Shown: in pieces, positions 42,231-55,608 of the stretch
How the letters are laid out: each line of letters starts with the position of its first letter
Position numbering within the stretch: the first letter of the stretch is position 1
Origin: Bacillota bacterium
GTDB lineage: Bacteria; Bacillota; Sulfobacillia; JAJZYS01; JAJYTV01
Assembly: GCA_021793645.1 (NCBI GenBank)
Contig: JAJYSJ010000002.1
Span: forward strand, 2,003-66,002
DNA length: 64,000 bases
Reading direction: 5' to 3'
Notes under the pieces: model-generated
The model's input: the letters and a program-made list of their open reading frames with translations, nothing else
Database searches by the model: none
Told to the model about the DNA's origin: nothing
Made by a program: the position numbers and the translations under genes

Positions 42231-42274
42231 GGTGGGCCACTTCCTCCTTGTTCCATTTGGGCACAGACCGCATT

Positions 42275-42280
42275 TATTAT
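42275..42280 (-). promoter_or_regulatory. Candidate -10 box (TATAAT) of the gap operon promoter
   Basis: Minus strand ...CGTTATAATAAATGCGG..., about 45 nt upstream of the gap start, in a lower-GC patch. -35 element weak (no TTGACA-like hexamer found upstream). Confidence 0.4.
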
Positions 42281-42346
42281 AACGAATGGCCTCCTCTGCC
42301 ACCACCTGCAGTCGATTCCAAGCACAGTCAGAAGGGCGCATTCTGC

Positions 42347-43870
42347 GTGGACCATATGGACTGGGTGCGGGCTCAGCAGCACGCAGCCTCCCCGCGGATG
42401 TACCAGACTGTGCGCCTGCGCGAACAGGACTTCCTTCATCTGTTATGGAAACTCCAGGAAGTGCTCCTCTGCTTGGAGGTGGGCTGCGTGACGCTGCGTG
42501 CCCTTGCCTACGATCTCGACATCGAGCTACTGCCCGTGCCTTCCGAGCATCCGATTGCGGATGCACCCGGCCGGATCGGCGTCTCATGCACCGTTCGCCT
42601 GCGCAATGAAGGCCGCCGCCCGGCATCCCAGGTGCATCTCCTGCTGTACCGGCTACTTCGCATCCTGTCCGCCGCAGAGTGGAACGCGACGGAGAAGCCG
42701 CTTTTGCTGCGGCAGTCCGTGCGGCGAATGTCGGTAGAGGGCGCAGATACGCTCTACGTAAATGCCGTGACGCTTTCGCTCGCGCAGGAGCTGGAGCCTG
42801 GCCGAGAGACGACATTGCGTTTGCACTATGGCGGCACGCTTGTCGGATACCGCGAAGCGTTCGCGTATGTCCATGACTCCGTGCAACGCGACGTCGCGGT
42901 CCTCAGGCCGGAGGTGCTCTGGTATCCGCTCATCGCCCGTGCATCCTGGGAGGGGTTCCTCAGCGCCTTGTCCGTGCCGCACTTCCACATGACGGTGCAC
43001 CTTCCGGAGCGCTGGGACTGCTTTGTCGCCTCGAGTGAGGCATCTGACCGAACGCATCGGCAAGTGCAGTTCACGAGCGCTACTCCATCGCTTGGAATGT
43101 ATCTCATCGCTGGACGGTATGGTCATCTGCACCGTGGCGAGATCCACGTCCACCACCTCCCGGGTAGAGAGGAATGGGCACGCGCCGCGTGCTCCGCTGC
43201 CTCCTTCGCCAGATCCACCCTGCGCAGCTGGCTCGGTCCGCCCGCATTCGGTGAAGACAGAGTGACGATCGTTCAGATCCCGGCGGGCTGGGGGTCCCAG
43301 AACCTTCCTGGCATGATCACCCAGACTGGCGAGAGCGACCCGGAACGCACCTTTCGGGAAGTGGTGCACGAGGTCGCCCACTTCTGGACTCCCCTCGGGG
43401 ATCCCAATCGGTTCTGCGACGAGGCGATGGCACATTTCCTCGAGGACCTACTAGAACGCGAAAAGAACGGGGAACAGCGCGGGGAAGCAGCATTCGCCCG
43501 CCACCTTGACGCACTCCGGGACAGCCCGGGCGCGCTGCGCGCTCCACTGGCGACGGCGGCAGGCCGCTTAGAGATCGACGTCATCTCGCGGCACAAGGGG
43601 CCCCTGGCCCTGGCGGTGCTCGATGCCTCTATCGGCCGAGCGCGGTTCTTTCAACTGCTCCGGGACTGGGTCGCCAACCCCGTTGCCGCTGGAGCGAGTG
43701 CTGGAACATTTGCGGAGTTCGTGCGGCGCGCACTCGTTGGCGAACAGGCTTGGAATGTTCAGAAGTTCCTCGACGATTGGTTCTACAGCGAGTCCGACAC
43801 AATCCAGCCGAACCTCCCGATAGCCGCAGCGCTCGACCGCGCGGTCGAGCGCTACAAGAGGAGCCGCTAG
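42347..43870 (+). CDS. M1-family (gluzincin) zinc metallopeptidase/aminopeptidase-like protein
   Basis: HEVAHFW...(18)...E zinc-binding HEXXH-X18-E motif. The start is uncertain: GTG 42347 after GAAGGG, or ATG 42356/42395. Divergent from gap. Confidence 0.6.
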   Translation: MDHMDWVRAQQHAASPRMYQTVRLREQDFLHLLWKLQEVLLCLEVGCVTLRALAYDLDIELLPVPSEHPIADAPGRIGVSCTVRLRNEGRRPASQVHLLLYRLLRILSAAEWNATEKPLLLRQSVRRMSVEGADTLYVNAVTLSLAQELEPGRETTLRLHYGGTLVGYREAFAYVHDSVQRDVAVLRPEVLWYPLIARASWEGFLSALSVPHFHMTVHLPERWDCFVASSEASDRTHRQVQFTSATPSLGMYLIAGRYGHLHRGEIHVHHLPGREEWARAACSAASFARSTLRSWLGPPAFGEDRVTIVQIPAGWGSQNLPGMITQTGESDPERTFREVVHEVAHFWTPLGDPNRFCDEAMAHFLEDLLEREKNGEQRGEAAFARHLDALRDSPGALRAPLATAAGRLEIDVISRHKGPLALAVLDASIGRARFFQLLRDWVANPVAAGASAGTFAEFVRRALVGEQAWNVQKFLDDWFYSESDTIQPNLPIAAALDRAVERYKRSR

Positions 43871-43895: not shown

Positions 43896-45239
43896 TCAAA
43901 TCAGGCCATCTGCCCTCGCCCGTGCGAGGCGCTCGCTTAGTTCCGCGTCCGAGATGGCCGTAACGCGGCCATCTCGGTACTGCGCCTCGACCCAACCGTG
44001 CAGGCACTCGACCGCGGGATGGTCCTTCGCCACCGACCCCGCCGCCAGACCGAGCTTCCGCTCCAGCCAAAGGGCGACGCCCGCAATGCCCGCCTTGTCC
44101 GTAACGAGCACGCCAGGCGGGCGTCCAAGCAGGCGTCCCGTATCGAAGATGCTGTAGATCTCCTCATCCTTGCGCAGACCGTCAAGGTGGATGCCCGCGG
44201 CAGTGACCTGGCTTTGGGATCCGACGAACGGCGTCATCGGCGGGATCCGGTAGGAGAGGCTTTCCTCGGCGTAGCGCGCGACCTCGGAAACGGCCAGCGT
44301 ATCCACGTCGCTGCGGCCGGTGAGCCCCATCCACTCGAAGAGAAGTCCCTCGATCGGCGTATTGCCGGTGCGCTCGCCGAATCCGAGCAGCGTGCCGTTC
44401 ACGGCGCCGCAGCCGTAGTGCCACGCCGTGACGGCATTTGACAGCCCGTGATGGAAGTCGTTGTGGCCGTGCCACTCGAGAGCCGCCTCCGGTACGCCGG
44501 CTTCGTGGCGCAGTGCGGCAACGAGCTTCGGCACGCTGCGCGGCGGCGCAGCGTCGTCATAGCCGACGCCGTAGCCAAGCGTGTCGCAGAGGCGGATCTT
44601 CACCTGGATGCCGCTCTCGCGGCTGCGCTCCATCAGGATGCGTGCGAAGGGCACGACGAACCCCTCGATGTCTGCCCGCGTCACGTCCTCAAAGTGGCAG
44701 CGCGGCACGATTCCCTCCGCGAGGGCCGCGTCCACGATCGCGAGATATGCCTCCACGGCCCTTCGGCGGTCCAGACGCAGCTTGCGATAGATGTGGTAAT
44801 CGGAGCACGAGGTGAGGATTCCGGTCTCGCGCACACCCGCCGCCTTGACCAGCGCGAAGTCCTCAGGCCTGGCACGGATCCAGGCTGTGACCTCCGGGAA
44901 GCGATAGCCGCGTTCCTGGCAGACCTCAACAGCCCGGCGGTCGCGCTCGCTGTACAGGAAGAACTCGGACTGGCGTACGAGACCGGCTTCTCCGCCAAGC
45001 CGATGCAGCAGGTCGAAGAGCCGCAGGATCTCCTGCGGCGTGTAGGGCGCACGGGCCTGCTGCCCGTCGCGGAAGGTCGTGTCAGTGATGTGGGGATCCT
45101 TTGCCGGATGCGGCGCGACGCGCACGCCGTCGAAGGGAATGCGCGGCGGCTGCGTGTACGGGAAGACCTCGCGGAGGAGTTCCGGTTCCTGGCGGTTCAG
45201 TGCGGATTCGTGCATATTGTTCGCCCCCCCTTGCATCAT
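43896..45239 (-). CDS. HMGL-like 2-isopropylmalate/homocitrate/citramalate-synthase family enzyme, lacking a C-terminal regulatory domain
   Basis: ITDTTFRDGQQ pyruvate-carboxyltransferase motif and HGHNDFHHGLSNAV...GERTGN metal-binding motifs. 447 aa. Confidence 0.7.
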   Translation of the reverse strand: MMQGGANNMHESALNRQEPELLREVFPYTQPPRIPFDGVRVAPHPAKDPHITDTTFRDGQQARAPYTPQEILRLFDLLHRLGGEAGLVRQSEFFLYSERDRRAVEVCQERGYRFPEVTAWIRARPEDFALVKAAGVRETGILTSCSDYHIYRKLRLDRRRAVEAYLAIVDAALAEGIVPRCHFEDVTRADIEGFVVPFARILMERSRESGIQVKIRLCDTLGYGVGYDDAAPPRSVPKLVAALRHEAGVPEAALEWHGHNDFHHGLSNAVTAWHYGCGAVNGTLLGFGERTGNTPIEGLLFEWMGLTGRSDVDTLAVSEVARYAEESLSYRIPPMTPFVGSQSQVTAAGIHLDGLRKDEEIYSIFDTGRLLGRPPGVLVTDKAGIAGVALWLERKLGLAAGSVAKDHPAVECLHGWVEAQYRDGRVTAISDAELSERLARARADGLI

Positions 45240-45258
45240 CGCTTGACGAGAATGATCG

Positions 45259-45275
45259 TGAATCCCAAATATTCA
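45259..45275. promoter_or_regulatory. LysR-type T-N11-A box (TGAAT-N7-ATTCA) between the divergent HMGL-like and LysR genes
   Basis: Perfect dyad TGAATCCCAAATATTCA in the 76-bp AT-richer divergent intergenic region. Confidence 0.45.
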
Positions 45276-45315
45276 AATAGACACTTCACATTTTCCGATC
45301 AGCGAGGGATGGCTG

Positions 45316-46206
45316 ATGGACACGACAGCGCTGCGTACCTTCGTCGTGGCCGCGCGCGCCGGCAGCTTCCGCCGGGCTGCCGCGCTGCGCTACCTTTCCC
45401 AGGCCACCGTGACCCAGCAGATCCAGCGGCTCGAGGCAGAGCTCGGAACGCCGCTGTTCGACCGCAGCGGGCGTGCGGTGCGCCTGTCCGCGGCAGGAAG
45501 CGCCTTCCTGCCGCGTGCGGAGCGCGTGCTGCGGGAGCTTGCGGCCGCTCAGGCCGACCTCGGTGAAGGCAGACCCGCTCCCCTGCGCATCGCCGCGGCA
45601 CCGCACATCGCCCGGGTCTTCCTGCCGTCGCTGCTCGCGCGCGCTGCGGCGCCCGAGCGCTGGGCGCTGTCCGTCCTCTCCTCGACCGATGTTCCGGAAG
45701 CGGTGCGTACAGGCGAGGCGGACGTCGGACTCGCCCGTTTCCGCCCTCTCCCCCTCGATCTGCAGTCGATCTTCCTCTACGAGGACGATCTCCTGCTGAT
45801 CACCGCCCACGACGGCCTCGACCTCGACCGCGAGCCACCCGACCCTGCCGATCTGCTCGGACGGCTGCCGCTCTTCACCTACGGCCCCGGAGCGACCTGG
45901 ATCGCAGTGGAGGAGGCCCTTCGCCGGGCCGGATTGCCAGCCCCACGGTTGATGCACGTAGCCCAAATCGACATCGCAAAGCAGTTCGTGCTGGGCGGAT
46001 TCGGTGTCGCTATCCTGCCAAATGCCGCCGTGCGCACGGAACTTGCCTTCGGCAGTGTGCTCGCGGTACCGCTCCTAGGCATTGCCCTGCCGAAGGACGG
46101 CGTGTACGCGATCCTCCCCGCCGAACCTTCACCCGCTGCCCAGCAGTTCGTGCAGCGGGCGGGGACCTGGTTCCTCGGACGAAGGACGGGCCACCACGGA
46201 ACTTGA
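45316..46206 (+). CDS. LysR-family transcriptional regulator
   Basis: MDTTALRTFVVAARAGSFRRAAALRYLSQATVTQQIQRLEAELGTPLFDR is the canonical LysR HTH; 296 aa. Confidence 0.85.
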   Translation: MDTTALRTFVVAARAGSFRRAAALRYLSQATVTQQIQRLEAELGTPLFDRSGRAVRLSAAGSAFLPRAERVLRELAAAQADLGEGRPAPLRIAAAPHIARVFLPSLLARAAAPERWALSVLSSTDVPEAVRTGEADVGLARFRPLPLDLQSIFLYEDDLLLITAHDGLDLDREPPDPADLLGRLPLFTYGPGATWIAVEEALRRAGLPAPRLMHVAQIDIAKQFVLGGFGVAILPNAAVRTELAFGSVLAVPLLGIALPKDGVYAILPAEPSPAAQQFVQRAGTWFLGRRTGHHGT

Positions 46207-46349
46207 TCTTGTGTCTCTTGGCAGGCGGCAGGACCCTGCGGAGGTCCAGGCGCCATGCGATGCGCGTCTTCGGGAAACTTGTCGTATGGGTCTACTTTCG
46301 TACATCCCGGCATACATGCACCCCATCCGCATAAGGGGGGCTTCTTGCC

Positions 46350-47660
46350 ATGGCCCTGGATCCAGACCGGTTTGACGAGGCGCCCCATGCCACCCTGTCG
46401 CAGCGGATCCGCTCACGCACCGCGCGGGTAGCGGTCATCGGAATGGGCTACGTCGGCTCTCAACTGGCCCTCGCCCAAGCGGAAGCCGGCTACCACGTAC
46501 TCGGCATCGAGGTTGACCCGGTCCGCCTGACCCAACTGAAGCTGGCAACAGATCTCTCGTCTCGCATCGCCGGCGGCAGCCTTCAACTGACCAATGACGT
46601 GCAGGCGCTCAGCACTGCAGACGTGATCGCAATCTGCGTCGGGACGCCTCTCAGTCGCAACCACGAACCCGACGTGGGGCCGCTGTGCTCAGCTGCAGCA
46701 GCGGTCGGCAGCACACTGCACCCTGGCCAGCTCGTTATCGTGGAGAGCACCGTGTACCCGGGTGCGACAGAGGAATTGGTGCGGGGGATCCTCGACGATC
46801 GCGGGCTCGTCTGCGGCGAGGACTACTTCCTCGCCTACGCCCCTGAACGCGTGGACCCCGGCAATCAACGGTACAGGTTTCGCAACACCCCGAAGTTGGT
46901 CGCAGGGGTAACCCCGGAGGCTGGCTCTCTGGCGAAAGCATTCTACTCCTCCGCTGTGGAGCAGGTCCTGGAGGTCTCGGAACCGAGAATTGCGGAGATG
47001 GCCAAGCTCTACGAGAACGCCTACCGCGCGGTGAACATCTCCTTCGTCAACGAGATGATGCTGCTGTGCCACCACATGGGCATCGACGTGTGGGAGGTTC
47101 TGTCCGCGGCGGAGAGCAAGCCGTTCGGCATCCAGATCTTCCAGCCCGGTCCAGGCATCGGCGGCCACTGCATTCCCGTCGATCCCTTCTACCTCTCCTG
47201 GAAAGCACGGGAATACGGCTTCCAGATCGGCTTCATCGAGCAGGTCGCTCGGGTGAACTGGCAGGTTGCCAGGCATGTCGTGCAGCAGGTCTCCACCGCG
47301 CTGAGCGACTCGGGGAAGAGCCTGCGAAACGCGAAGCTCCTGGTCCTCGGGGTGGCCTACAAGGCGGACGTCGCCGACGTCCGTGAATCGGCGGCATTGC
47401 GAATCCTGCCGGAACTCAGGAAGCTCGGTGCGCAGGTCCGCTACCACGATCCCCTCGTCGCCGAACTGGAAGTCGACGGTGAGCACCTGCGCAGCGTCGA
47501 CCTTACACCCGACGCGTTGGCGTCCTCCGATTGCGTGCTCGTGCTGACCGACCACAGCGGCGTCGACTACGAGGCGGTAGTGCGCTACGCACCCTTGGTC
47601 TACGACACGCGCAACGCGACCCGGCTGCAGCTTCCATCCCCCAACGTGTTGCGACTGTAG
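46350..47660 (+). CDS. UDP-N-acetyl-hexosamine 6-dehydrogenase (WecC/WbpA/TviB/Cap5O family nucleotide-sugar dehydrogenase)
   Basis: VAVIGMGYVGSQLA Rossmann motif, ESTVYPGATEE, AYAPERVDPGN and ...FQPGPGIGGHCIPVDP... with catalytic Cys align with WecC/WbpA rather than HasB/Ugd-type UDP-glucose dehydrogenase. Confidence 0.78.
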   Translation: MALDPDRFDEAPHATLSQRIRSRTARVAVIGMGYVGSQLALAQAEAGYHVLGIEVDPVRLTQLKLATDLSSRIAGGSLQLTNDVQALSTADVIAICVGTPLSRNHEPDVGPLCSAAAAVGSTLHPGQLVIVESTVYPGATEELVRGILDDRGLVCGEDYFLAYAPERVDPGNQRYRFRNTPKLVAGVTPEAGSLAKAFYSSAVEQVLEVSEPRIAEMAKLYENAYRAVNISFVNEMMLLCHHMGIDVWEVLSAAESKPFGIQIFQPGPGIGGHCIPVDPFYLSWKAREYGFQIGFIEQVARVNWQVARHVVQQVSTALSDSGKSLRNAKLLVLGVAYKADVADVRESAALRILPELRKLGAQVRYHDPLVAELEVDGEHLRSVDLTPDALASSDCVLVLTDHSGVDYEAVVRYAPLVYDTRNATRLQLPSPNVLRL

Positions 47661-47672
47661 GCGGCGGGCGCA

Positions 47673-48959
47673 ATGCTGCACGTTCCGAAACTGCAGGGTC
47701 TGATGCTGTTCCTGATCGTCGCGGCTGCCGTCGTGGGGCTGAACGCCGCGATGAACCAGGGGGGAATGCTCGGTTTCAGTCTCTACGGCGCGGTCACCTT
47801 GACGTATCTCCTGCTCAAGATCCTCTTCTCGCTCTGGTACCGTCCATTCGAGGCGCCCGAGGGTTGGTGTGACGATCAATCGGTCGCCGTCATTGTGCCG
47901 GTATACAACGAGGATCTGGAAGTGTTCCAGCGCTGCCTGCAGAGCATTCTCCTACAGAGCAGGCCAATCGACGAGATCTACGTGGTCGACGATGGATCGC
48001 AAGATGACGCATGTTTTCGCGTGGCCCAGGAAACGTTCCGCGGGACGCCACACCGGGTCGTGCGCTTCACCGAGAACCGCGGCAAGCGATACGCCCAGGA
48101 GGTGGCATTTCGCGAGACCACTGCCGACATCGTGCTCACTGTCGACAGCGACAGCGTCCTCGACGAGAACGCAGTGCGTGAAGGCTTGAAGCCCTTTTCC
48201 ATGACCAGTGTCCAGGGAGTCTGCGGCCAGGTGCGTGTGCTGAACCGCGACCAGAATTTCCTTACCCGGTTGCTCGATCTGCGGTACCGCAACTCGTTCC
48301 TCTACGAGCGGACGGCGTACACCGTCTGGGATTCGGTGCTCTGCTCCTCCGGCGTGATCAGCTTCTGGCGGGTTGCGCTGGTGCGCTCACACCTCGACGA
48401 CTACGTGAACCAGACCTTCCTCGGCGTGCCCGTGGGGTACGGCGACGATCGCAGGATGACCAACTACGCCTTGCTGACGGGGCGTGTGGTGTTTCAGGAG
48501 ACAGCCGTCGCCGATACCGTCGTCCCCATCACCCTGCGCCATTTCCTAAAGCAGCAGAACCGGTGGAACAAGTCGTTCTTTCGCGAGACGATCTTCGCAC
48601 TGACCCGCCTCCCGCTGCGGCGCATTGCGTGGTGGATTTCCTTGAGCGAGGTTGCGCTGTGGCTGTTCTTCACGGTCAATCTGGTCGCCAGCGTGATCCG
48701 GCCCCTGGTCGGCGGCACTGCGCTTGGCGTCTACTACCTCGGGTATCTCGCCTTGATGGCGTACGCCCGCAACGTGCGGTTTGGACTGGGAAACTGGGGT
48801 ACGTTCCTGCTCTCCCCGCTGTACGGCGCCTTGCATCTGTTCCTGCTCGTTCCGCTCCGCGTCCTGAGTCTCTTCTCCCTGCGCGACGGACGATGGGGAA
48901 CGCGCGAGGCCGGCGGGCCTCCCCCGCCTACGGTGGGCAGCAACGTCTCGTCTGCGTAG
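47673..48959 (+). CDS. Class I hyaluronan-synthase (HasA)-like processive GT2 polysaccharide synthase
   Basis: Collinear with streptococcal HasA over the full length: VAVIVPVYNED, EIYVVDDGSQDD, NRGKRYAQ, LTVDSDS, GDDRRMTNY, QQNRWNKSFFRE (QXXRW), LLSPLYGALHLF and ...WGTRE. 428 aa with N- and C-terminal TM segments. Confidence 0.85.
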   Translation: MLHVPKLQGLMLFLIVAAAVVGLNAAMNQGGMLGFSLYGAVTLTYLLLKILFSLWYRPFEAPEGWCDDQSVAVIVPVYNEDLEVFQRCLQSILLQSRPIDEIYVVDDGSQDDACFRVAQETFRGTPHRVVRFTENRGKRYAQEVAFRETTADIVLTVDSDSVLDENAVREGLKPFSMTSVQGVCGQVRVLNRDQNFLTRLLDLRYRNSFLYERTAYTVWDSVLCSSGVISFWRVALVRSHLDDYVNQTFLGVPVGYGDDRRMTNYALLTGRVVFQETAVADTVVPITLRHFLKQQNRWNKSFFRETIFALTRLPLRRIAWWISLSEVALWLFFTVNLVASVIRPLVGGTALGVYYLGYLALMAYARNVRFGLGNWGTFLLSPLYGALHLFLLVPLRVLSLFSLRDGRWGTREAGGPPPPTVGSNVSSA

Positions 48960-48971
48960 GGGGGTTTCGCG

Positions 48972-50573
48972 TTGTCGCGGTCTCGGGTAATTCTTCTCGT
49001 CCTGATCGTTGCCGGGATGCTGCTGGCGCTGGTGATGGAGTCCGGGCTCTGGTCACCGTCCATCTCCCCTGCGCGGGTCACCGAAGCGTTCACCAGCATG
49101 AGCGGCACGCCGCCGCCTCCATCCCCTCCACGCCTGCCGCCGGTTGCAACCGCCTCCTGCAGATCGGCCTCTCAGTCGTGGCTGCAGGTCTGGGGCGACA
49201 ACTTCAATCAACCCTTTGACAACTACCGCTGGCATGTCATGACGGGACAGCCGCGCAAGAACGGTGAAGTGGAGAACTACCTTGCAGCGAACGTACTGGA
49301 TCAGGGTGGCAACCTCGTTCTGCGTACAGCACGGGAAGGATCAGGCTACTCCTCCGGCGCCGTCGACACCAGAGGCACCCTGTCCCTGCTCTATGGCAAG
49401 ATCGTCATCCGTGCGAAGCTGCTGCGCGGCCAAGGGATCTGGCCGGCATTCTGGCTCAGGCCAGTGAGCGGCAGCCTGCTGCCGGAGATCGACATCATGG
49501 AAATGCTCGGGAGCCGGCCGAACGCAGTCGATATGACACTGCACTGGGAATCCGCACAGGGACCCACGCACACCTACATCGAGCACATTGGGCCAGACCT
49601 CTCGGCTGGCTTCCATACCTACACGCTCGTCTGGCTGCCCGGCGACCTGCGCTGGTACCTTGATGGGCAGCTGCTCCTCAATGTGACGGCCCACGTTCCG
49701 AATGTACCGATGTACCTCACGATGAACACTGCTGTCGGCAGCACCTGGGGGGGCTACCCGGCGCCAAGCACGCAATTGCCCCAGGATCTGCTGGTAGACT
49801 TCGTGCACGTCTACCAGTACGGCATCTGCACCAGCGGGCACTTTACGCCGTCCCCGGGCGAGTACGTCAACATGAGCTGCGAGTGCCGGGTCGGCGTGTT
49901 CGTTCTGCACCAGGTCTCGTCGACTAACCTTGGCCCCTACAATATCACGCCAGCCCAGCTTGCGGCGGACGTCGACTACCTGCGCCGTCACCACGTCCGC
50001 TTCATGTCGCTGGAGCAGTTCCTCACCTTCGAGGAAGGCCGCTGGAAACCGCAGGGAGCCTGGGTGCTTCTCACCTTCGATGACGGCTACAGCAGCATCT
50101 ACCGGAATGCGCGACCGATCTTGGCGGCGCGCCACATTCCGGCGGTCCTGTTCCTCATCGGCAGCAGACTTGATACGGAACGCTTCTGGATGTCCACAGT
50201 CCAGGTGAAGAGTCTCGCGCACAGTGGCCTTTGGGCAATTGAAGCACATACCTTCGCAGAGCACCACCTCGTTCACGGCGTGCCGGTGCTGCAAACCCTC
50301 GAGAGCAAGAAGCAAGAGGTCGTCATCGTGCACGACACCTGGCGCGAGCAGGCGGTTATCCGCTCCTTGACCGGCAGATCGGCATACGCCTTCGCCTTCC
50401 CATACGGCTACGAGACCCCGACGCTGGCCGCTCTCTACAGCCGCAGCTATGCCATCACCTTCGACTCGCACTACGCCTTGGCGCAGCCCGGCCAAGATGT
50501 GGTGCCGCGCATAGACCTCGGGTCACCCAAAGCGGACGTTCAGGCGATCTGGCAGCATTGGTTTGCGCATTAG
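48972..50573 (+). CDS. Secreted/membrane-anchored bifunctional enzyme: N-terminal GH16 glycoside hydrolase domain plus C-terminal CE4 (NodB-type) polysaccharide deacetylase domain
   Basis: N-terminal signal/anchor MSRSRVILLVLIVAGMLLAL. GH16 catalytic motif ...WPAFW...LPEIDIMEM (E-I-D-I-M-E). CE4 motifs LTFDDGY and ...AHTFAEHHL.... Confidence 0.72.
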   Translation: MSRSRVILLVLIVAGMLLALVMESGLWSPSISPARVTEAFTSMSGTPPPPSPPRLPPVATASCRSASQSWLQVWGDNFNQPFDNYRWHVMTGQPRKNGEVENYLAANVLDQGGNLVLRTAREGSGYSSGAVDTRGTLSLLYGKIVIRAKLLRGQGIWPAFWLRPVSGSLLPEIDIMEMLGSRPNAVDMTLHWESAQGPTHTYIEHIGPDLSAGFHTYTLVWLPGDLRWYLDGQLLLNVTAHVPNVPMYLTMNTAVGSTWGGYPAPSTQLPQDLLVDFVHVYQYGICTSGHFTPSPGEYVNMSCECRVGVFVLHQVSSTNLGPYNITPAQLAADVDYLRRHHVRFMSLEQFLTFEEGRWKPQGAWVLLTFDDGYSSIYRNARPILAARHIPAVLFLIGSRLDTERFWMSTVQVKSLAHSGLWAIEAHTFAEHHLVHGVPVLQTLESKKQEVVIVHDTWREQAVIRSLTGRSAYAFAFPYGYETPTLAALYSRSYAITFDSHYALAQPGQDVVPRIDLGSPKADVQAIWQHWFAH

Positions 50574-50741
50574 ACCACAACGCCAGCCGAGCGGGACCTC
50601 CGGCAGTTTGCTGCGCGCCCGCTGCCACTACTTCCGCTGGAAGATCCTCACCCGGTCCTCGGCCGCATTTGATACTGGATCTCGAGCAAGGCACAGGCCC
50701 GGCGAAGGCACTGCCTCCACCGGGCCAGCCGTACTGTTTGC

Positions 50742-52172
50742 CTAGATGTCGAGGTACAGGTAGTACTCCATCGGCACCGGGCGCAGGTTCACCGGGTTGA
50801 TCTCTTCACGCCGCTTGTAATCGATCCAGGCGTGGATGAGATCCTCCGAGAACACCCCGCCCTCCGTGAGGAAGCCGTGATCCGCCTCAAGCTGGTTTAG
50901 TGACTCCGCGAGGCTCCCTGGCACCGCGCCGATCTTCGCGGCGTCCTCGGGTGCGAGGTGGTAGATGTTCTTGTCGAGCGGGCCGAAACCGAGCGCCGTC
51001 GGGTCCAGCTTGCGCTTCACACCGTCGAGGCCAGCCATCAGCATCGCGGCGAAGGCGAGGTACGGATTGCCGGTGGCGTCCGGCGTGCGGAACTCGATGC
51101 GCACGGACTTCGGGCTCTCCTGGGCGATCGGCACACGCACGGCCGCGGAACGGTTGCCCTTCGCGAAGACAAGGTTCACAGGCGCCTCGAACCCTGGCAC
51201 GAGCCGACGGTAGGAGTTTGTGGTCGCGTTCGTCAGCCCGACGAGCGCCGGAGCGTGGCTGAGGATGCCCGCGATGTAGTGCAGCGCCGTATCCGACAGG
51301 TTGCCATAGCCGCCCTTCTTGTAGAAGAGGGGCTCGCCGCCGCGGAAGATCGACTGATGCGTGTGCATACCGGAGCCGTTGTCGCCGTAGAGCGGCTTCG
51401 GCATGAAGGTCGCGATCTTGCCTGCCTGGCGGGCGATGTTCCTGACGATGTACTTGTAGAGCAGCACGTGGTCGGCGGTGCGGGTCAGACGGTCGAAGCG
51501 GAACCCAATCTCGCCCTGTCCCGCCGTCGCCACCTCGTGGTGGTGACGCTCCACCTGCATGCCGCAGGCGATCATCGTCCGCACCATCTCGCCGCGCAGG
51601 TCGGAGAGCTGGTCGTGCGGCGACACAGGCGCGTACCCGGACTTCGGCCGAATGCGGTACTGCAGATTCGGGCCGCCGATGTCGCCGGTGCCCCACGCGG
51701 ATTCGTCCGACGCGATCGCAAAGAACGATTCCTCCGGGTTCACCTGGTAGCGCACGTCGTCAAAGACGAAGAACTCGAGCTCCGGACCGAAGTACGCGAC
51801 GTCGCCGACCCCGGAGCTCTGCAGGTACTGCTCGGCCTGCTGCGCGATGTGGCGCGGGTCGCGATCGAAGCGGCGCATGCCGGGCTCGTAGACGTCGCAG
51901 GTGATCGAGAGGGTGCGGCGCGCGTGGAAGGGATCGAGGAATGCGGACTCCGGGTCGGGGAGCATGATCATGTCGCTCTCCTCGATTTCCCGGAAGCCGC
52001 GCAGCGAACTCCCGTCGAAGGGGATGCCTTCGGTGAAGGCCTCCGGCCCGATCTCGCTGGCTGGAAGGGTGATGTGGTGCCAGGTGCCGGGGAGGTCAAT
52101 GAGCTTCAGATCGACGAACTCAACCTCACCGCTCTGAAGCATTGCCAGGATCTCGTCCCTAGTCAACGTCAT
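50742..52172 (-). CDS. glnA: Glutamine synthetase type I
   Basis: 476 aa GSI with conserved GS signatures. Overlaps the glnR stop. Confidence 0.95.
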   Translation of the reverse strand: MTLTRDEILAMLQSGEVEFVDLKLIDLPGTWHHITLPASEIGPEAFTEGIPFDGSSLRGFREIEESDMIMLPDPESAFLDPFHARRTLSITCDVYEPGMRRFDRDPRHIAQQAEQYLQSSGVGDVAYFGPELEFFVFDDVRYQVNPEESFFAIASDESAWGTGDIGGPNLQYRIRPKSGYAPVSPHDQLSDLRGEMVRTMIACGMQVERHHHEVATAGQGEIGFRFDRLTRTADHVLLYKYIVRNIARQAGKIATFMPKPLYGDNGSGMHTHQSIFRGGEPLFYKKGGYGNLSDTALHYIAGILSHAPALVGLTNATTNSYRRLVPGFEAPVNLVFAKGNRSAAVRVPIAQESPKSVRIEFRTPDATGNPYLAFAAMLMAGLDGVKRKLDPTALGFGPLDKNIYHLAPEDAAKIGAVPGSLAESLNQLEADHGFLTEGGVFSEDLIHAWIDYKRREEINPVNLRPVPMEYYLYLDI

Positions 52173-52518
52173 CCTCCTCTTCGTGCTCCGAGATCATGCG
52201 CTCTAGCTCCGCACGGTTCGACACGGGATAGAGCGAGCGCAGCGCCTGGCCGGAAAGCAGCCGGCTGCGCACGTCGGACTCCGGGGGCAAGGTGCGCTGC
52301 TGCCCGAGCGCGCGTCGCACCGTTTGCAGCGTCTGCCCCGCGTCGAGCATGCGACGGATCTGCTGCAGTCTCGCCACTTCCGGCGGACCGTAGAGACGCT
52401 GGCGGCCCGGCGTGCGACGCGGCGTGATCAGCCCCTGGCTTTCGTAGTAGCGGATTTGCCGCTCCGTCAGCCCGGTAAGGGCACTCACAGGGCCGATGCC
52501 CAAGAGGCTCTCTGCCAT
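52159..52518 (-). CDS. glnR: MerR-family glutamine-synthetase repressor GlnR
   Basis: MAESLLGIGPVSALTGLTERQIRYYESQGLITPRRTPGRQRLYG is a MerR-type HTH. Immediately upstream of glnA, overlapping it by 14 nt. Confidence 0.85.
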   Translation of the reverse strand: MAESLLGIGPVSALTGLTERQIRYYESQGLITPRRTPGRQRLYGPPEVARLQQIRRMLDAGQTLQTVRRALGQQRTLPPESDVRSRLLSGQALRSLYPVSNRAELERMISEHEEEDDVD

Positions 52519-52671: not shown

Positions 52672-53325
52672 CTAGCGGTTCAGGTCCTTGCGCTCCCCCG
52701 ACACCATATAGATGACAGCCTCGCCGAGGTTCGTGGCGTGGTCCGCCACGCGCTCGAGGTGCTGGGCGACGAAGAGGAGGTGCGTCGCCTGGTGGATCGT
52801 CCTTGGGTCCTCCATCATGTAGACAAGCAGTTCGCGCAGCACCTGGCTGTACAGGTGGTCGACCTGGTCGTCCGTGCGCAAAAGTTCGTGCGCCGCCTCG
52901 GGATCGCGCCGCACATAGGCACGCAAGGCATCGCGCGTCATGCGCTGCGCGAGGTCCGCCATCCGCGGCACGTCGATCAGCGGCTTCATCAGCGGCTCCC
53001 CTGCGATGCGCAGGGTCACCTTCGCGATGTCGACCGCGTGGTCCCCAATCCGTTCCAGATCCCCGACAATCTTGATCGCCGTACCGACGATGCGCAGATC
53101 GGTCGCCATCGGCTGCTGTAGCGCGATGATCTCGAGGCAGCGCGTTTCGATGTCCACTTGCATCGCGTCCACATCATCGTCGCCGTCGATAATCTCCTGC
53201 GCGACATGCACGTCGCCTGCCTCCAGCGACCGCACCGACTGCCCGATGCGCTCCTCGACGAGCGTGCCCATGCGCAGGATGTCCTGCTGCAGTTCCTCAA
53301 GCTCCTGGTGGAATGTGCTGCGCAC
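52672..53325 (-). CDS. phoU: Phosphate-transport regulator PhoU
   Basis: 217 aa, two PhoU repeats. Downstream of pstB. Confidence 0.9.
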   Translation of the reverse strand: MRSTFHQELEELQQDILRMGTLVEERIGQSVRSLEAGDVHVAQEIIDGDDDVDAMQVDIETRCLEIIALQQPMATDLRIVGTAIKIVGDLERIGDHAVDIAKVTLRIAGEPLMKPLIDVPRMADLAQRMTRDALRAYVRRDPEAAHELLRTDDQVDHLYSQVLRELLVYMMEDPRTIHQATHLLFVAQHLERVADHATNLGEAVIYMVSGERKDLNR

Positions 53326-53340
53326 GACTGCCCCCTCCCT

Positions 53341-54099
53341 CTAGCCGAACCGGCCCGTAATGTAGTCTTCCGTTCGCTGGTCGCGAGGCCGGGTGAAGAT
53401 GTCCCTCGTCGGCCCGAACTCGATCAGTTCGCCGCTCAAAAAAAAGGCGGTGTGATCAGATATGCGGCCAGCCTGCTGCATGTTGTGCGTCACGACGATT
53501 AGTGTATACCGCTCTTTCAACGAAACCGCCAATTCCTCGATCTTCGCTGTCGCGACCGGGTCGAGCGCCGATGCCGGCTCGTCCATCAAGAGGACCTCGG
53601 GCTCCACCGCCAGTGCTCGAGCGATGCATAGGCGCTGCTGCTGGCCTCCAGACAGTTCGAACGCGCTGCGCTGCAGCTTGTCGTGCACCTCGTCCCAGAG
53701 TGCCGCGGCGCGCAAGCTCTCTTCGACGATCTCGCGCAGTCTGCGTTCGCTGCGCTGTCCATGGATGCGGGGACCGTAGGCAACGTTCTGGTAGATCGAC
53801 ATCGGAAACGGATTCGGACGCTGGAAGACCATCCCGACACGGCGCCTAAGCGCCACGGGATCTTTGCCGCGCGCATAGATGTCCTCGCCGTCCAGCAGCA
53901 CGCTCCCCTGCACGCGTGCACCTGGGACATGGTCGTTCATGCGGTTGAGCGTACGCAGGAATGAGGACTTGCCGCAGCCGCTCGGACCGATGATGGCCGT
54001 GATCGAATTCTCCGGCACCCTCACGCTGATCTCCTTCAGCCCCTGCGAAGGGCCGTACCAGAGGCTCAGCTTCTCGGCTTCCATCTTCGCTGCGTTCAA
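53341..54099 (-). CDS. pstB: Phosphate ABC transporter ATP-binding protein
   Basis: Walker [16 protein letters not shown] signature LSGGQQQRL, Walker [12 protein letters not shown]; N-terminal extension typical of PstB. Confidence 0.93.
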
Positions 54100-54860
54100 C
54101 GCATGAGACCCTCCTGTCGCCGTTCGAACAAGAGCTCGGCTGCGGCCGCCGCAAGCGCGGCCAGCGATAAAAGCAGCGCAACCGGCCAGAATGACTGCGC
54201 AGTCCCGATCCGTCCTTGCATCTCAAGATACCATAGGGCCGCGGCAAGCGTCGCGCCTGCCCGGAGCGCCCCCTCTCCGTGCGCTGCGAGCGGGCCAGCG
54301 AGGAGCGCGACGAGGCCTGCCTCGCCGAGTGCACGACCGGCGACCTGGAGCAGCGTCTGGCCGATTTCCTGCCGGGCCGCGGGAAAGACGGCCCGCGCAG
54401 CCTGCGACGCATCGGCCCCCAGCGCCAATGCGGCCTCGGCGATCTCCCGATGCCGCGCAAAGCCTTCAGCCACCTGCAGAACGGCGATTGGCAGGTTCAG
54501 CAGTGCGAGCCCCACGGCAGCGAGCCAGACTCCCGCCGGCAGGTGCATCAGGTCCGCCCAGGCGATCAGCACCGCTGCACCGACCGCCACGGACGGAACG
54601 GCGGCCGCCGCCTGCAGGAAGCTGCGCACAGCCCCCTCTTTGCGGCCGGCCCCGCCGAGCGCCAGTTCAGCGCCGGCCCGAAGGCCCAGCGTCGCGCTGA
54701 CGGATACCGCGAAGAGCGACGTGACGAGCGTCGCGAGCAGCGGTCCGAGATCCGGCGGCGTGCGCGGTATGCCGCCGGATGCCGCGGCGGCGCAGAGCCA
54801 GACAGCGGCGGTGAGCAGCACGAGTGCGCGGTAGCGGCCCTCACCGCTGCGCAGGCGCAT
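54096..54860 (-). CDS. pstA: Phosphate ABC transporter permease (PstA-like)
   Basis: Ala/Leu-rich polytopic protein in the pstA position. The start is uncertain. The track ORF overlaps pstC by 77 nt. Confidence 0.65.
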
Positions 54861-55608
54861 CTCGCACCCTCCCAAGCGCGCCGGCAGCCGCGCCCGCCAA
54901 CGCGAGCAGGAGCGCAATCGCGCCGAGGGCTGCCTGCCAGCGCCCGCCCGCAGGCGCCTGCGGCAGCTCTGCGAGGAGCGACGCCGAGAGTGCTCCGGAT
55001 GGAGCGAAGAGCCGCGGAAGCCCTCCCGCGTTGCCGATCAGCACGCTGAGGACGGCGGCCTCGCCGATGATCCGGGTCGCCGCAAGCCCGAAGAGCCGAA
55101 TGCGCACTCCGCGCAGGGCACCCCGCAGCGCCAGAAGGACGCCATCCGGCCCGGCTCCAAGGGCGACGGCTCCGTCGCGCGCCGCGCTTTGTGCCGACAG
55201 CGCACCGGCGATGCCCTGTGCGACGAGCGGCGTCTGCAAGAGCCCGAGGCCGATCGCTGCAAGCGCAGTCCCCTCGCCGAGGGAAACGCTGTGCAGGGCC
55301 GGCAGGAGGGCTGCGAGCATGCCTGCCGCCAGCGCCACCCCCGGCGTGCTCGCGAGGACGCGCAGTGTCCGTCCGCGGCGCCCGAAAGCGATCTGCACGC
55401 CTGCGCCCTCGCCAAGCCAGAGTGCAAGCGCACCGCCCAACCCCGCCACCAGCAGCGAGCCGAGCACGATGCCCGCGACGCCATAGGCGAAGGGCGGCGA
55501 CCACACGGGTCCGAGGGTGATCCGCCAGATCCCCTCGCCGCCCCAAACCGCGACGACAGCGAGGGGCAGGCCGGCAGCGAGGAGCGCGAGCCGCAGGCCG
55601 CGGCTCAC
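54841..55608 (-). CDS. pstC: Phosphate ABC transporter permease (PstC-like)
   Basis: Polytopic membrane protein between pstS and pstA. 4-nt overlap with pstS. Confidence 0.65.
   Translation of the reverse strand: MSRGLRLALLAAGLPLAVVAVWGGEGIWRITLGPVWSPPFAYGVAGIVLGSLLVAGLGGALALWLGEGAGVQIAFGRRGRTLRVLASTPGVALAAGMLAALLPALHSVSLGEGTALAAIGLGLLQTPLVAQGIAGALSAQSAARDGAVALGAGPDGVLLALRGALRGVRIRLFGLAATRIIGEAAVLSVLIGNAGGLPRLFAPSGALSASLLAELPQAPAGGRWQAALGAIALLLALAGAAAGALGRVRDAPAQR

What the first reader, a model, noticed from the sequence alone, without database searches (positions are those of the whole stretch)
46350..50573. HasA-type polysaccharide synthase locus with a non-canonical partner set: WecC/WbpA-type UDP-HexNAc dehydrogenase plus a secreted GH16-CE4 enzyme
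The GT2 at 47673-48959 is collinear with streptococcal class I hyaluronan synthase over essentially every diagnostic block (VYNED, DDGS, GKR, DSD, GDDRxxTNY, QQNRWNKSFFRE, SPLYG...WGTR). Canonical hyaluronan operons pair HasA with HasB (UDP-glucose dehydrogenase) and HasC. Here the adjacent dehydrogenase instead carries WecC/WbpA/TviB-family motifs (ESTVxPGxTE, APERVxPG), which make UDP-N-acetyl-hexosaminuronic acids. No HasB, HasC or UDP-GlcNAc 2-epimerase is present. The third gene encodes an exported protein fusing a GH16 hydrolase domain (EIDIME) to a CE4 NodB-type deacetylase (TFDDG). The inferred product is therefore not hyaluronan but a HexNAcA-GlcNAc-type acidic polymer that is N-deacetylated, and possibly trimmed or transglycosylated, outside the cell. 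That would be a NodC/NodB- or PgaC/PgaB-like logic grafted onto a HAS chassis. A LysR gene sits directly upstream on the same strand. I do not know of a described system with this composition.
Basis: partly seen in the sequence, partly recalled or inferred. Interest (0 to 1): 0.8.

Follow-up and report, generated by a model that had tools for sequence, protein, structure and literature searches.

The report
HAS-like acidic exopolysaccharide three-gene cassette
A Thermaerobacter genome carries a rare, self-contained three-gene operon that probably builds and exports a hyaluronan- or chitin-like polymer containing N-acetylglucosaminuronic acid and then deacetylates and trims it outside the cell; the polymer's chemistry has not been tested.

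Summary
Three tightly packed genes (12-nt gaps) encode a nucleotide-sugar dehydrogenase, a HAS-type membrane synthase and a membrane-anchored GH16-CE4 fusion. The synthase is 41-42% identical to streptococcal and pXO1 HasA, and its 13 best structural matches are all hyaluronan synthases. It nevertheless lies outside the verified HasA clade, in its own clade with 100% bootstrap support. The dehydrogenase groups with TviB-type UDP-GlcNAc 6-dehydrogenases (92.5% bootstrap). It carries all four signature motifs that separate HexNAc-specific from glucose-specific enzymes. The window has no UGDH, GalU or 2-epimerase. The same three genes recur in the same order in four other contigs with unrelated flanks. 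Among 1.84 billion representative proteins, the GH16-CE4 fusion was found only in this cassette. The LysR gene is not conserved. The best reading is a minimal synthase-dependent exopolysaccharide module: UDP-GlcNAcA supply, polymerisation and export, then PgaB/PelA-like extracellular processing. Two points qualify the novelty claim. HAS-like synthases pair with this dehydrogenase type in at least two other metagenomic lineages. A UNGD/CHS-like/deacetylase cluster has also been described in fungi and algal viruses, with its product unknown. Verdict: a new variant of a known kind, with an untested polymer.

The parts
46350..47660 (+). Nucleotide-sugar 6-dehydrogenase of the TviB/WbpA type (predicted UDP-GlcNAc 6-dehydrogenase that makes UDP-GlcNAcA). 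Signature residues: EST 132-134, APERVDPGN 164-172, ENAYR 222-226, GGHC 271-274 (catalytic Cys274). A purine-rich RBS-like AAGGGGGG lies at 46333-46340.
   Evidence: Pfam three-domain architecture. NCBIfam scores: WecC 218-237 and TviB 192, above AglM 163 and TuaD 150, with Ugd at 18 bits. NJ tree: in a clade with TviB at 92.5% bootstrap, excluding WecC/Cap5O/4r16, CalS8 and all UGDHs. Signature motifs match all HexNAc-type references. JGI names its ~50% homologues UDP-N-acetyl-D-glucosamine dehydrogenase.
47673..48959 (+). HAS-like family-2 processive synthase with an integrated membrane channel. Motifs: DDGS 106-109, GKR 137-139, DSD 158-160, GDDRR 257-261, QQNRW 294-298, WGTR 408-411.
   Evidence: PDB sequence search: CvHAS 133.6 bits, XlHAS1 129.5 bits. 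41-42% identity to HasA. AF2 model pLDDT 87, pTM 0.88. Foldseek top 13 are all HAS, TMq 0.67-0.78. Member of a 100%-supported cassette clade outside the verified HasA clade.
48972..50573 (+). Membrane-anchored or secreted bifunctional GH16-CE4 protein (whole gene; TTG start).
   Evidence: ORF. Pfam GH16 + CE4. AF2 model pLDDT 87.4. Both domains together occur only in two 50%-identity clusters among 1.84 billion representative proteins. The N-terminal hydrophobic segment is conserved in homologues, which supports the TTG start over the shorter NCBI start.
48972..49148 (+). N-terminal hydrophobic helix (residues 3-23; signal anchor or signal peptide) followed by a disordered Pro-rich linker (residues ~34-59).
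   Evidence: Kyte-Doolittle segment 1-29. AF2 helix 3-23 and pLDDT below 50 for residues 34-59. Conserved in P0242-P0244; P0245 has a classical signal peptide.
49155..49856 (+). GH16 domain (residues ~62-295), laminarinase-like (GH16_3-type), with the catalytic motif EIDIME at residues 172-177.
   Evidence: Pfam PF00722, 80.6 bits. PDB beta-1,3-glucanases, 128-129 bits. Foldseek nearest: Thermotoga, Nocardiopsis and Cellulosimicrobium laminarinases.
49884..50570 (+). CE4 polysaccharide N-deacetylase domain (residues ~305-533) of the IcaB/PgaB type. Motifs: TFDDG 367-371, His426 and His431 (HTFAEH), FAFPYG 473-478.
   Evidence: Pfam PF01522, 63.7 bits. NCBIfam IcaB 74.7 and PgaB 64 bits. PDB IcaB 4wcj, 83.8 bits, with the Asp-Asp and H-x4-H residues aligned.
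45316..46206 (+). LysR-family regulator directly upstream on the same strand. It is adjacent, not a conserved part of the cassette.
   Evidence: Pfam HTH_1 + LysR_substrate. No LysR gene lies next to the cassette in L027/L028, L025, L026 or L009.

Best explanation
This is a minimal, self-contained synthase-dependent exopolysaccharide operon. [quoted passage not shown] Step 2 (fold and motifs shown, substrates inferred): the HAS-type GT2 in the membrane polymerises a beta-linked chain and pushes it through its own channel. The donors are UDP-GlcNAcA, most likely together with UDP-GlcNAc. The product would be a hyaluronan- or chitin-like acidic HexNAc polymer in which GlcNAcA takes the place of GlcA. 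Step 3 (domains and catalytic residues shown, activity inferred): the GH16-CE4 protein is tethered to the outer face of the membrane by an N-terminal helix and a Pro-rich linker. Its IcaB/PgaB-type CE4 domain partly de-N-acetylates the nascent polymer. Its GH16 domain cleaves or transglycosylates the beta-1,3/1,4 bonds. This would be the same job that the bifunctional PgaB and PelA do for PNAG and Pel. No outer-membrane export parts are needed if, as assumed here and not tested, the host has a single membrane.
For: Operon structure: 12-nt gaps on the same strand. Five independent loci share the order DH-GT2-GH16CE4 with unrelated flanks. The fusion is found only with this synthase clade: only two 50%-identity clusters among 1.84 billion representatives carry it. 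The dehydrogenase sits in the TviB clade at 92.5% bootstrap, apart from UDP-ManNAc dehydrogenases, CalS8 and UGDHs. It carries EST/PERVxPG/ENxxR/GGHC like all six HexNAc-type references, whereas all six glucose-type references have KST/(S,T)NxxL,I/GG(S,Y)C. That group includes CalS8, which sits in the same superclade. It is only 24.6% identical to pXO1 HasB. Loci with a UGDH-type dehydrogenase carry GalU in 8 of 11 cases; loci with a NAc-type dehydrogenase carry it in 0 of 14. The window has no UGDH, GalU or epimerase. The GT2 has a HAS fold. The HAS donor pocket already accommodates both an acetamido group and a C6 carboxylate in a single site, recognised by K177 and R341 (PMC12987647, PMC11750622); both residues are conserved here as K138 and R297. 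The CE4 catalytic Asp-Asp and His-x4-His align with IcaB, and the GH16 EIDIME motif is intact. GH16 enzymes that cleave hyaluronan exist (PMC11669647). PgaB (CE4+GH153) and PelA (hydrolase+deacetylase) are precedents for the processing step (PMC5933820, PMC12022489).
Against: No biochemical evidence exists for any of the three proteins. The dehydrogenase falls far below every NCBIfam equivalog cutoff (TviB 192 vs 592; WecC 218 vs 459). No characterised WbpA sequence was in the tree. The GT2's closest relatives (~50% identity) are mostly stand-alone genes of unknown product, so the ancestral product could be a plain HexNAc homopolymer. A sub-clade inside the verified HasA clade also pairs with this dehydrogenase type, which could mean the dehydrogenase clade hides UDP-Glc activity. 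The GH16 domain looks like an ordinary laminarinase and shows no unusual charge. Only 64 kb of the genome was visible, so a UGDH elsewhere cannot be excluded.
Confidence: 0.55

Rival explanations
1. Ordinary hyaluronan locus. Despite its family placement, the dehydrogenase makes UDP-GlcA from UDP-glucose. The GT2 makes GlcA-GlcNAc hyaluronan, and GH16-CE4 acts as an accessory hyaluronidase and deacetylase.
For: The GT2 is 41-42% identical to HasA and has a HAS fold. CalS8 shows that glucose-specific enzymes exist in the wider superclade. A sub-clade nested within the verified HasA clade also pairs with this dehydrogenase type. GH16 hyaluronidases exist (PMC11669647).
Against: The dehydrogenase shares none of the four glucose-type signature motifs that CalS8 and all UGDHs share. 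It groups with TviB at 92.5% bootstrap. No GalU was found in any of the 14 loci with a NAc-type dehydrogenase, against 8 of 11 UGDH loci. The GT2 lies outside the verified HasA clade (96-99.5% bootstrap for that clade).
Confidence: 0.12
2. Chitin- or chitosan-like homopolymer system. The GT2 polymerises only UDP-GlcNAc and the CE4 domain converts the product to a partly deacetylated polymer. The GH16 domain remodels it, much as fungal Crh-type GH16 enzymes remodel chitin (author's recollection, not checked in the literature). The dehydrogenase supplies another pathway or only a minor substituent.
For: Most of the closest non-cassette relatives of the GT2 have no adjacent dehydrogenase. NCBIfam's best hit is NodC, at 198 bits. 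Streptococcal HAS itself makes chitin oligomers (PMC10939387). The CE4 domain is of the poly-GlcNAc deacetylase type.
Against: The dehydrogenase is the first gene of the operon in all five loci, usually with 12-25 nt gaps. That is hard to explain if its product is not a substrate. The GT2 is closer to HasA than to NodC or CHS in both sequence and fold.
Confidence: 0.15
3. The polymer contains a different HexNAc-uronic acid (GalNAcA or ManNAcA). This would need a 4- or 2-epimerase encoded elsewhere in the genome. The overall mechanism would otherwise be the same.
For: TviB-type enzymes feed UDP-GalNAcA pathways through a separate epimerase (PMC3682973). A related HAS-like GT2 (L010) is paired with a UDP-GlcNAc 2-epimerase. 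Only 64 kb of the genome was visible.
Against: No epimerase lies in or next to any of the five cassette loci. The cassette moves as a three-gene unit with unrelated flanks, which suggests it is self-sufficient.
Confidence: 0.1
4. The GH16-CE4 protein is unrelated to the synthase product. It would be a secreted enzyme that attacks foreign beta-glucan and chitin (for example fungal walls) and merely shares an operon.
For: The GH16 domain is a typical laminarinase-like domain, 32-39% identical to beta-1,3-glucanases. Its charge is ordinary.
Against: The fusion occurs only next to this synthase clade, in 5 of 5 cases, and was found nowhere else. It is membrane-tethered rather than freely secreted in four of five homologues. 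The CE4 domain is of the exopolysaccharide (IcaB/PgaB) type.
Confidence: 0.05

Closest known systems
hasABC / hasACB hyaluronan capsule operons (Streptococcus; Bacillus cereus and B. anthracis pXO1)
   Same: A class I HAS-type GT2 (41-42% identity, same motif blocks, same fold) sits in an operon with a nucleotide-sugar 6-dehydrogenase. A single membrane enzyme polymerises and exports the chain.
   Different: The dehydrogenase here is TviB/WbpA-type, only 24.6% identical to pXO1 HasB. There is no GalU (HasC). There is an extra GH16-CE4 gene. The GT2 lies outside the verified HasA clade and differs in clade-specific motifs: ER.AYT and GDDRRMTNY here, against ERAAQS and GDDRCLTNY in HasA.
Fungal and phycodnaviral UNGD / CHS-like (CHS8, CHSL; CV/ESV class) / polysaccharide deacetylase (CDA1) gene cluster
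   Same: The same three-function composition: UDP-GlcNAc 6-dehydrogenase + CHS/HAS-like processive GT2 + CE4 deacetylase. The authors proposed that these work together, and the product is likewise unknown (PMC4059230, PMC5122149, PMC7053769).
   Different: That cluster is eukaryotic or viral, not bacterial. Its GT2 belongs to a chitin-synthase class (QRKRW), whereas this one is HasA-like (QQNRW) and matches HAS structures better than CHS. It has no GH16 domain, and its deacetylase is a separate gene.
PgaABCD / IcaADBC (PNAG) and Pel systems
   Same: A GT2 or other synthase works with an extracytoplasmic bifunctional deacetylase/glycoside hydrolase that processes the nascent polymer: PgaB = CE4+GH153, PelA = hydrolase+deacetylase. 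The CE4 domain here is most similar to IcaB and PgaB (PMC5933820, PMC12022489).
   Different: The synthase is only 23-24% identical to PgaC. The hydrolase domain is GH16, not GH153 or GH166. A precursor dehydrogenase is present. No c-di-GMP-binding subunit, porin or TPR scaffold was detected.
NodC/NodB (Nod-factor backbone)
   Same: A HAS/CHS-related GT2 is paired with a CE4 N-deacetylase.
   Different: NodC is 33-37% identical over the GT domain only and makes short oligomers. NodB is cytoplasmic and acts on the non-reducing terminal residue (author's own knowledge). There is no dehydrogenase and no GH16.
Vi antigen (TviB/TviC/TviE) and WbpA pathways
   Same: A UDP-GlcNAc 6-dehydrogenase supplies an N-acetyl-hexosaminuronic acid for a surface polysaccharide. 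The window's dehydrogenase groups with TviB.
   Different: Those pathways use non-processive GT4-type or Wzy/ABC-dependent assembly and further nucleotide-sugar tailoring enzymes (author's own knowledge). None of those is present here.

Membership tests
Class I hyaluronan synthase (HasA-type) | Single GT2 domain fused to a membrane channel; HAS-like fold | tested here: met
   AF2 model pLDDT 87, pTM 0.88. Foldseek top 13 hits are all XlHAS1 or CvHAS, TMq 0.67-0.78. BcsA scores 0.58 and chitin synthases 0.53-0.55.
Class I hyaluronan synthase (HasA-type) | Conserved catalytic and substrate motifs (DxD, GDDR, QxxRW, GKR, WGTR) | tested here: met
   All are present and invariant across the family alignment. 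They are shared with NodC and CHS, so they do not discriminate between these families.
Class I hyaluronan synthase (HasA-type) | Falls in the clade of experimentally supported HasA enzymes | tested here: not met
   The HasA clade (Streptococcus, pXO1, Bacillus) has 96-99.5% bootstrap support and excludes the window protein. The window protein sits in a separate 100%-supported cassette clade.
Class I hyaluronan synthase (HasA-type) | Operon partner is a UDP-glucose 6-dehydrogenase (HasB), usually with GalU (HasC) | tested here: not met
   The partner dehydrogenase is TviB-type. No UGDH or GalU is in the window.
Class I hyaluronan synthase (HasA-type) | Product is the GlcA-beta1,3-GlcNAc-beta1,4 polymer | not testable with these tools
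   Needs an enzyme assay or polymer analysis.
UDP-GlcNAc 6-dehydrogenase (WbpA/TviB type) | Three-domain UDPG_MGDP_dh architecture with a catalytic Cys | tested here: met
   Pfam N/central/C domains. GGHC with Cys274.
UDP-GlcNAc 6-dehydrogenase (WbpA/TviB type) | Phylogenetic placement with characterised or annotated UDP-GlcNAc dehydrogenases rather than UDP-ManNAc or UDP-Glc dehydrogenases | tested here: met
   In a clade with two TviB sequences at 92.5% (85.5% with added sequences). WecC, Cap5O, 4r16, 3g79, CalS8 and the UGDHs fall outside. P. aeruginosa WbpA itself was not available.
UDP-GlcNAc 6-dehydrogenase (WbpA/TviB type) | Residue signature that separates HexNAc-type from glucose-type enzymes | tested here: met
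   EST / PERVDPGN / ENAYR / GGHC here, against KST / NPEFLREG / xNxFL / GG(S,Y)C in glucose-type enzymes. The signature was derived here from 12 references; it is not a published rule.
UDP-GlcNAc 6-dehydrogenase (WbpA/TviB type) | Reaches a curated equivalog score | tested here: not met
   TviB model 192 bits against a cutoff of 592. Only the generic TIGR03026 nucleotide-sugar dehydrogenase model passes, at 386.8 against 189.8.
GH16 glycoside hydrolase | GH16 beta-jelly-roll fold with the ExDxxE catalytic motif | tested here: met
   Pfam 80.6 bits against a cutoff of 22. EIDIME at residues 172-177. Foldseek matches laminarinases at E 1e-23. Substrate not testable.
CE4 exopolysaccharide N-deacetylase (IcaB/PgaB type) | CE4 fold with an Asp-Asp base/metal motif and a His-x4-His metal motif | tested here: met
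   Pfam 63.7 bits against a cutoff of 23.1. TFDDG and HTFAEH align to IcaB 4wcj. The IcaB equivalog cutoff is not reached, at 74.7 against 248.
Synthase-dependent EPS systems of the Pga/Pel/Bcs kind | c-di-GMP receptor (PilZ, PgaD, PelD) that controls the synthase | tested here: not met
   Pfam finds no PilZ or other c-di-GMP-binding domain in the three proteins. Several stand-alone relatives lie near GGDEF genes, but the cassette does not.
Fungal/viral UNGD-CHS8-CDA cluster | The GT2 belongs to the CV/ESV chitin-synthase class (QRKRW) | tested here: not met
   The motif here is QQNRW. The best sequence and structure matches are HAS, not CHS. No direct comparison with CHS8 sequences was possible.

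The most novel reading that the evidence does not exclude
The cassette makes a polysaccharide class that has not been described. It would be a beta-linked GlcNAcA/GlcNAc polymer ('N-acetylated hyaluronan' or 'C6-oxidised chitin'), and the tethered CE4 domain would partly convert it into a zwitterionic amino-uronan. All of this would come from a three-gene thermophile module. On the same reading, the wider HAS-like radiation would use interchangeable second sugars (GlcA, GlcNAcA, ManNAc), set by whichever precursor gene sits beside the synthase. The fungal and viral UNGD-CHS8-CDA clusters would be the eukaryotic counterpart of the same chemistry.
Probability: 0.4. Interest if true: 0.8.

Novelty: new variant of a known kind. 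Interest (0 to 1): 0.62.

Why it matters
If the inference holds, HAS-type synthases are not tied to UDP-GlcA. Their single donor pocket already accepts an acetamido group and a carboxylate, and the neighbouring precursor gene would set the polymer's chemistry. This cassette would then be the smallest known complete system for an acidic, partly deacetylated HexNAc polymer: precursor, polymerase-exporter and processing enzyme in 4.2 kb. The lineage appears thermophilic (judged from the genus name; not tested here), which would make the cassette attractive for making new glycosaminoglycan- or chitosan-like materials. It would also give a tractable bacterial model for the uncharacterised fungal and chloroviral UNGD-CHS8-CDA clusters, which have been linked to virulence and mycoparasitism. 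Finally, it would add GH16 to the hydrolase families recruited for exopolysaccharide processing alongside CE4 deacetylases.

Tried and rejected
1. The carboxylate-recognising residues of CvHAS (K177, R341; PMC12987647) cannot serve as a test for UDP-GlcA use. They are conserved in the window protein, but also in NodC.

2. The promoter and terminator scan of 45200-50900 found no sigma-70-like promoter. Terminator-like sites were no more frequent than in shuffles.

3. The LysR gene is absent from the other four loci, so it was rejected as a conserved regulator.

4. The electrostatics of the GH16 domain gave no hint of a polyanionic substrate. Its pI is 5.4-5.8, against a median of 5.1 for 176 other GH16 domains. 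The CE4 domains are more neutral or basic, but only six domains were available for comparison.

5. Looking up the window's own proteins and the Thermaerobacter paralogue P0207 in the contig index found nothing on record. The rest of this genome could therefore not be checked for a UGDH.

6. The metagenome scan gave 80 loci but no further cassette members; none exceeded 53% identity.

7. Literature searches for a bacterial HAS-like + UDP-GlcNAc dehydrogenase + deacetylase system, or for a poly-GlcNAcA polymer, found no bacterial description.

8. Horizontal acquisition is not evident from composition: the cassette GC is 0.63 against 0.66 for the window.

9. Biopython's bootstrap timed out and was replaced by a numpy NJ bootstrap. 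The trees are NJ on corrected p-distances, not maximum likelihood.

Full report
OBSERVATION. The three ORFs exist exactly as described. They are a 436-aa dehydrogenase (46350-47660), a 428-aa GT2 (47673-48959) and a 533-aa GH16-CE4 protein (48972-50573, TTG start). All three are on the + strand with 12-nt gaps. A LysR gene (45316-46206) lies upstream. The window comes from a Thermaerobacter sp. MAG: one search returned a 100%-identical protein with that name. The flanking genes are housekeeping: GAPDH, an HMGL-like synthase, glnA with a MerR-type regulator, and phoU/pstB. A tblastn search of the 64-kb window with UGDH, Ugd, GalU, WecB and Epimerase_2 queries found only the cassette's own dehydrogenase.

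THE SYNTHASE. In the PDB by sequence, the best matches are Chlorella virus HAS (133.6 bits) and Xenopus HAS1 (129.5 bits); the next family scores 32 bits. The protein is 41-42% identical to Streptococcus uberis and S. catagoni HasA and to B. cereus/B. anthracis pXO1 HasA over 85-94% of its length. NodC is 33-37% identical over the GT domain only, and PgaC 23-24%. An AlphaFold model built from a 30-sequence family alignment is confident (pLDDT 87, pTM 0.88). Its 13 best Foldseek matches are all hyaluronan synthases (TMq 0.67-0.78). Cellulose synthase scores 0.58 and chitin synthases 0.53-0.55. So 'HAS-type' is correct at the level of family and fold.

The phylogeny refines this. The experimentally supported HasA enzymes and their UGDH-linked relatives form a clade with 96-99.5% bootstrap support, and that clade does not include the window protein. 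The window protein belongs to a 100%-supported clade of seven sequences, five of them on contigs long enough to show the cassette. This clade sits within a poorly resolved sister radiation of ~50%-identical proteins. The radiation has its own motif variants: ER.AY(S/T) and GDDRR(L/M)TNY, against ERAAQS and GDDRCLTNY in HasA. Most of its members are stand-alone genes, several near GGDEF genes, and one is paired with a UDP-GlcNAc 2-epimerase. In CvHAS, Lys177 and Arg341 recognise the UDP-GlcA carboxylate (PMC12987647, PMC11750622). Both are conserved here, but NodC has them too, so they do not settle the substrate question.

THE DEHYDROGENASE. The NCBIfam equivalog models rank as WecC (237 and 218 bits) > TviB (192) > AglM (163) > TuaD (150) >> Ugd (18). 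All are below their cutoffs. By tblastn, unnamed 'nucleotide sugar dehydrogenases' are 43-46% identical, TviB and WecC 31-33%, and pXO1 HasB 24.6%. JGI names most of the ~50%-identical metagenomic relatives UDP-N-acetyl-D-glucosamine dehydrogenase.

I built an NJ tree with 200 bootstraps over 426 columns. The references were E. coli WecC and Ugd; pXO1 and streptococcal HasB; the dehydrogenases next to Bacillus HasA; two TviB sequences; and five PDB proteins. The window enzyme falls in a clade with TviB at 92.5% bootstrap. Outside that clade are the UDP-ManNAc dehydrogenases (WecC, Cap5O, 4r16), the Methanosarcina 3g79 enzyme, CalS8 and every UDP-glucose dehydrogenase.

Four alignment positions separate the references by substrate, not just by clade. 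All six HexNAc-type references have EST, PERVxPG, ENxxR and GGHC. All six glucose-type references have KST, a different second block, xNxx(L/I) and GG(S/Y)C; this group includes CalS8, which sits in the same superclade. The window enzyme has the HexNAc version at all four positions, and in the second block it resembles TviB rather than WecC. This signature was derived here from 12 references and is not a published rule. There is also a contextual correlation. GalU is present in 8 of 11 loci where a HAS-like gene sits next to a UGDH-type dehydrogenase, and in 0 of 14 loci where it sits next to a NAc-type dehydrogenase. Together these results make a UDP-GlcNAc 6-dehydrogenase that yields UDP-GlcNAcA the most likely assignment. 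It remains an inference.

THE GH16-CE4 PROTEIN. The AlphaFold model (pLDDT 87.4) shows four parts: an N-terminal helix (residues 3-23), a disordered Pro-rich linker (34-59), a GH16 beta-sandwich (68-293) and a CE4 barrel (307-531). The hydrophobic N-terminus is conserved in the homologues, and one homologue has a classical signal peptide. This supports the TTG start over the shorter NCBI start and an extracytoplasmic, mostly membrane-tethered location. The GH16 domain keeps the EIDIME catalytic motif and is closest to GH16_3 laminarinases and beta-1,3(4)-glucanases. The CE4 domain is closest to the PNAG deacetylases IcaB (83.8 bits) and PgaB, with the TFDDG and H-x4-H metal and base residues aligned.

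The fusion is very rare. A word-indexed search of 5.8 billion proteins found five clusters carrying both domains. An exhaustive phmmer search of 1.84 billion representatives found only two 50%-identity clusters that match across both domains. The multi-stretch hits in that search are tandem GH16 repeats. All five fusion proteins sit directly downstream of a cassette-clade synthase.

CONSERVATION. The five loci are the window, L027/L028 (Bacillota MAG DX1.bin73), L025, L026 and L009. All share the order DH-GT2-GH16CE4 on one strand, with unrelated flanking genes. All five are GC-rich, at 0.62-0.69. The cassette is therefore a self-contained module, and the LysR gene, present only in the window, is not part of it. 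Divergence within the cassette is uneven: in L027 the GT2 is 83% identical to the window's, the fusion 66%, and the dehydrogenase only 48%. The five dehydrogenases are not robustly monophyletic, so the dehydrogenase may have been replaced by a paralogue at least once.

HOW UNUSUAL IS IT. A scan of metagenome contigs with the family alignment gave 80 loci, none above 53% identity, so none belongs to the cassette clade. However, two other groups pair a HAS-like GT2 with a TviB-clade dehydrogenase. In L046-49 (GC ~0.69-0.70 in L047/L049) the dehydrogenase is upstream. In L055/L057-61 and the IMG/VR contig L110 (GC 0.31-0.36 where measured), it is downstream, and L057 also has GlmS alongside. The second group is nested inside the verified HasA clade. 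So the synthase/dehydrogenase pairing is recurrent; what is unique to this cassette is the GH16-CE4 gene.

The literature holds a composition-level precedent in eukaryotes and their viruses. A UDP-GlcNAc 6-dehydrogenase (UNGD) is clustered with a CHS/HAS-like GT2 (CHSL/CHS8) and a polysaccharide deacetylase in Fusarium, Trichoderma, Wangiella and phycodnaviruses. The product was unknown in those papers (PMC4059230, PMC5122149, PMC7053769). I found no bacterial description.

MECHANISM. The best-supported reading has three steps. The dehydrogenase supplies UDP-GlcNAcA. The HAS-type synthase polymerises and exports a beta-linked GlcNAcA-containing chain, probably with GlcNAc as well. The tethered GH16-CE4 enzyme then partly de-N-acetylates the chain and cleaves or transglycosylates it. 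This is the same logic as PgaB (CE4+GH153; PMC5933820) and PelA (hydrolase+deacetylase; PMC12022489). Using GH16 for a polymer with beta-1,3/1,4 linkages is plausible, and fungal GH16 hyaluronidases are known (PMC11669647). What has been shown is gene order, conservation, folds, catalytic motifs and family placement. What is inferred is every substrate and product. I put 0.55 on this reading. The rivals are ordinary hyaluronan (0.12), a chitin- or chitosan-like homopolymer (0.15), another HexNAc-uronic acid made through an unlinked epimerase (0.10), and an unrelated secreted glucanase/deacetylase (0.05).

VERDICT. The synthase is HAS-like but not a member of the verified HasA clade. LysR is incidental. 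The composition has partial precedents elsewhere. It is a new variant of a known kind (a synthase-dependent exopolysaccharide system on a HAS chassis) with an uncharacterised and possibly new polymer. Interest 0.62.

Noticed in passing
L010:8001-10433 (metagenome contig ERZ21269717 contig_37879): A 50%-identical HAS-like GT2 is followed directly by a UDP-GlcNAc 2-epimerase (Epimerase_2). The pair is embedded among GH26 and SLH-domain genes and other glycosyltransferases. This suggests a ManNAc-containing polymer made by the same synthase radiation.
   Followed up: partly
L055, L057-L061, L110 (GC 0.31-0.36 where measured) and L046-L049 (GC ~0.69-0.70 in L047/L049): Two further groups of HAS-like GT2 genes lie 10-90 nt from a TviB/WbpA-clade dehydrogenase, with no GalU and no GH16-CE4. 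The first group is nested inside the verified HasA clade, and L057 also has GlmS upstream.
   Followed up: partly
L117-L119, L122, L123, L125 (chlorovirus-like IMG/VR contigs): A weak GH16-like ORF lies about 0.8 kb upstream of the viral HAS gene, on the opposite strand. It is 24-28% identical to the window's GH16 domain (43-59 bits). It may be the chlorovirus beta-1,3-glucanase, and the parallel with the GH16 next to a HAS-like gene here may be coincidence.
   Followed up: no
window 48972-49016: The NCBI gene model for the GH16-CE4 protein (518 aa, P0241) starts 15 codons later than the TTG at 48972. The longer form restores an N-terminal hydrophobic segment that is conserved in P0242-P0244, so the deposited start is probably too short.
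   Followed up: yes
L027:8563-9903 versus window 46350-47660: Divergence within the cassette is uneven. In L027 the synthase is 83% identical to the window's and the fusion 66%, but the dehydrogenase only 48%. The five cassette dehydrogenases are not robustly monophyletic, so the dehydrogenase may have been replaced by a paralogue.
   Followed up: partly
window 42248-43870 (+): A 540-aa ORF carries an HExxH-type motif (HEVAHFW) but has no Pfam match at E<=1e-5. Its 5' part overlaps the long upstream extension of the GAPDH ORF on the opposite strand (41223-42815), so one or both starts are probably overcalled.
   Followed up: no
window 50742-52518 (-) and 52672-56000 (-): glnA and an overlapping MerR-family regulator (GlnR/TnrA-like arrangement) lie directly downstream of the cassette. 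They are followed by phoU, pstB and apparent pst permease genes, in a stretch whose GC rises to 0.73 at 54-56 kb.
   Followed up: no
L013:6538-7302: A PIG-L family (LmbE-like) de-N-acetylase gene lies about 700 nt upstream of a stand-alone HAS-like GT2. This hints that other members of the radiation may also be coupled to de-N-acetylation.
   Followed up: no
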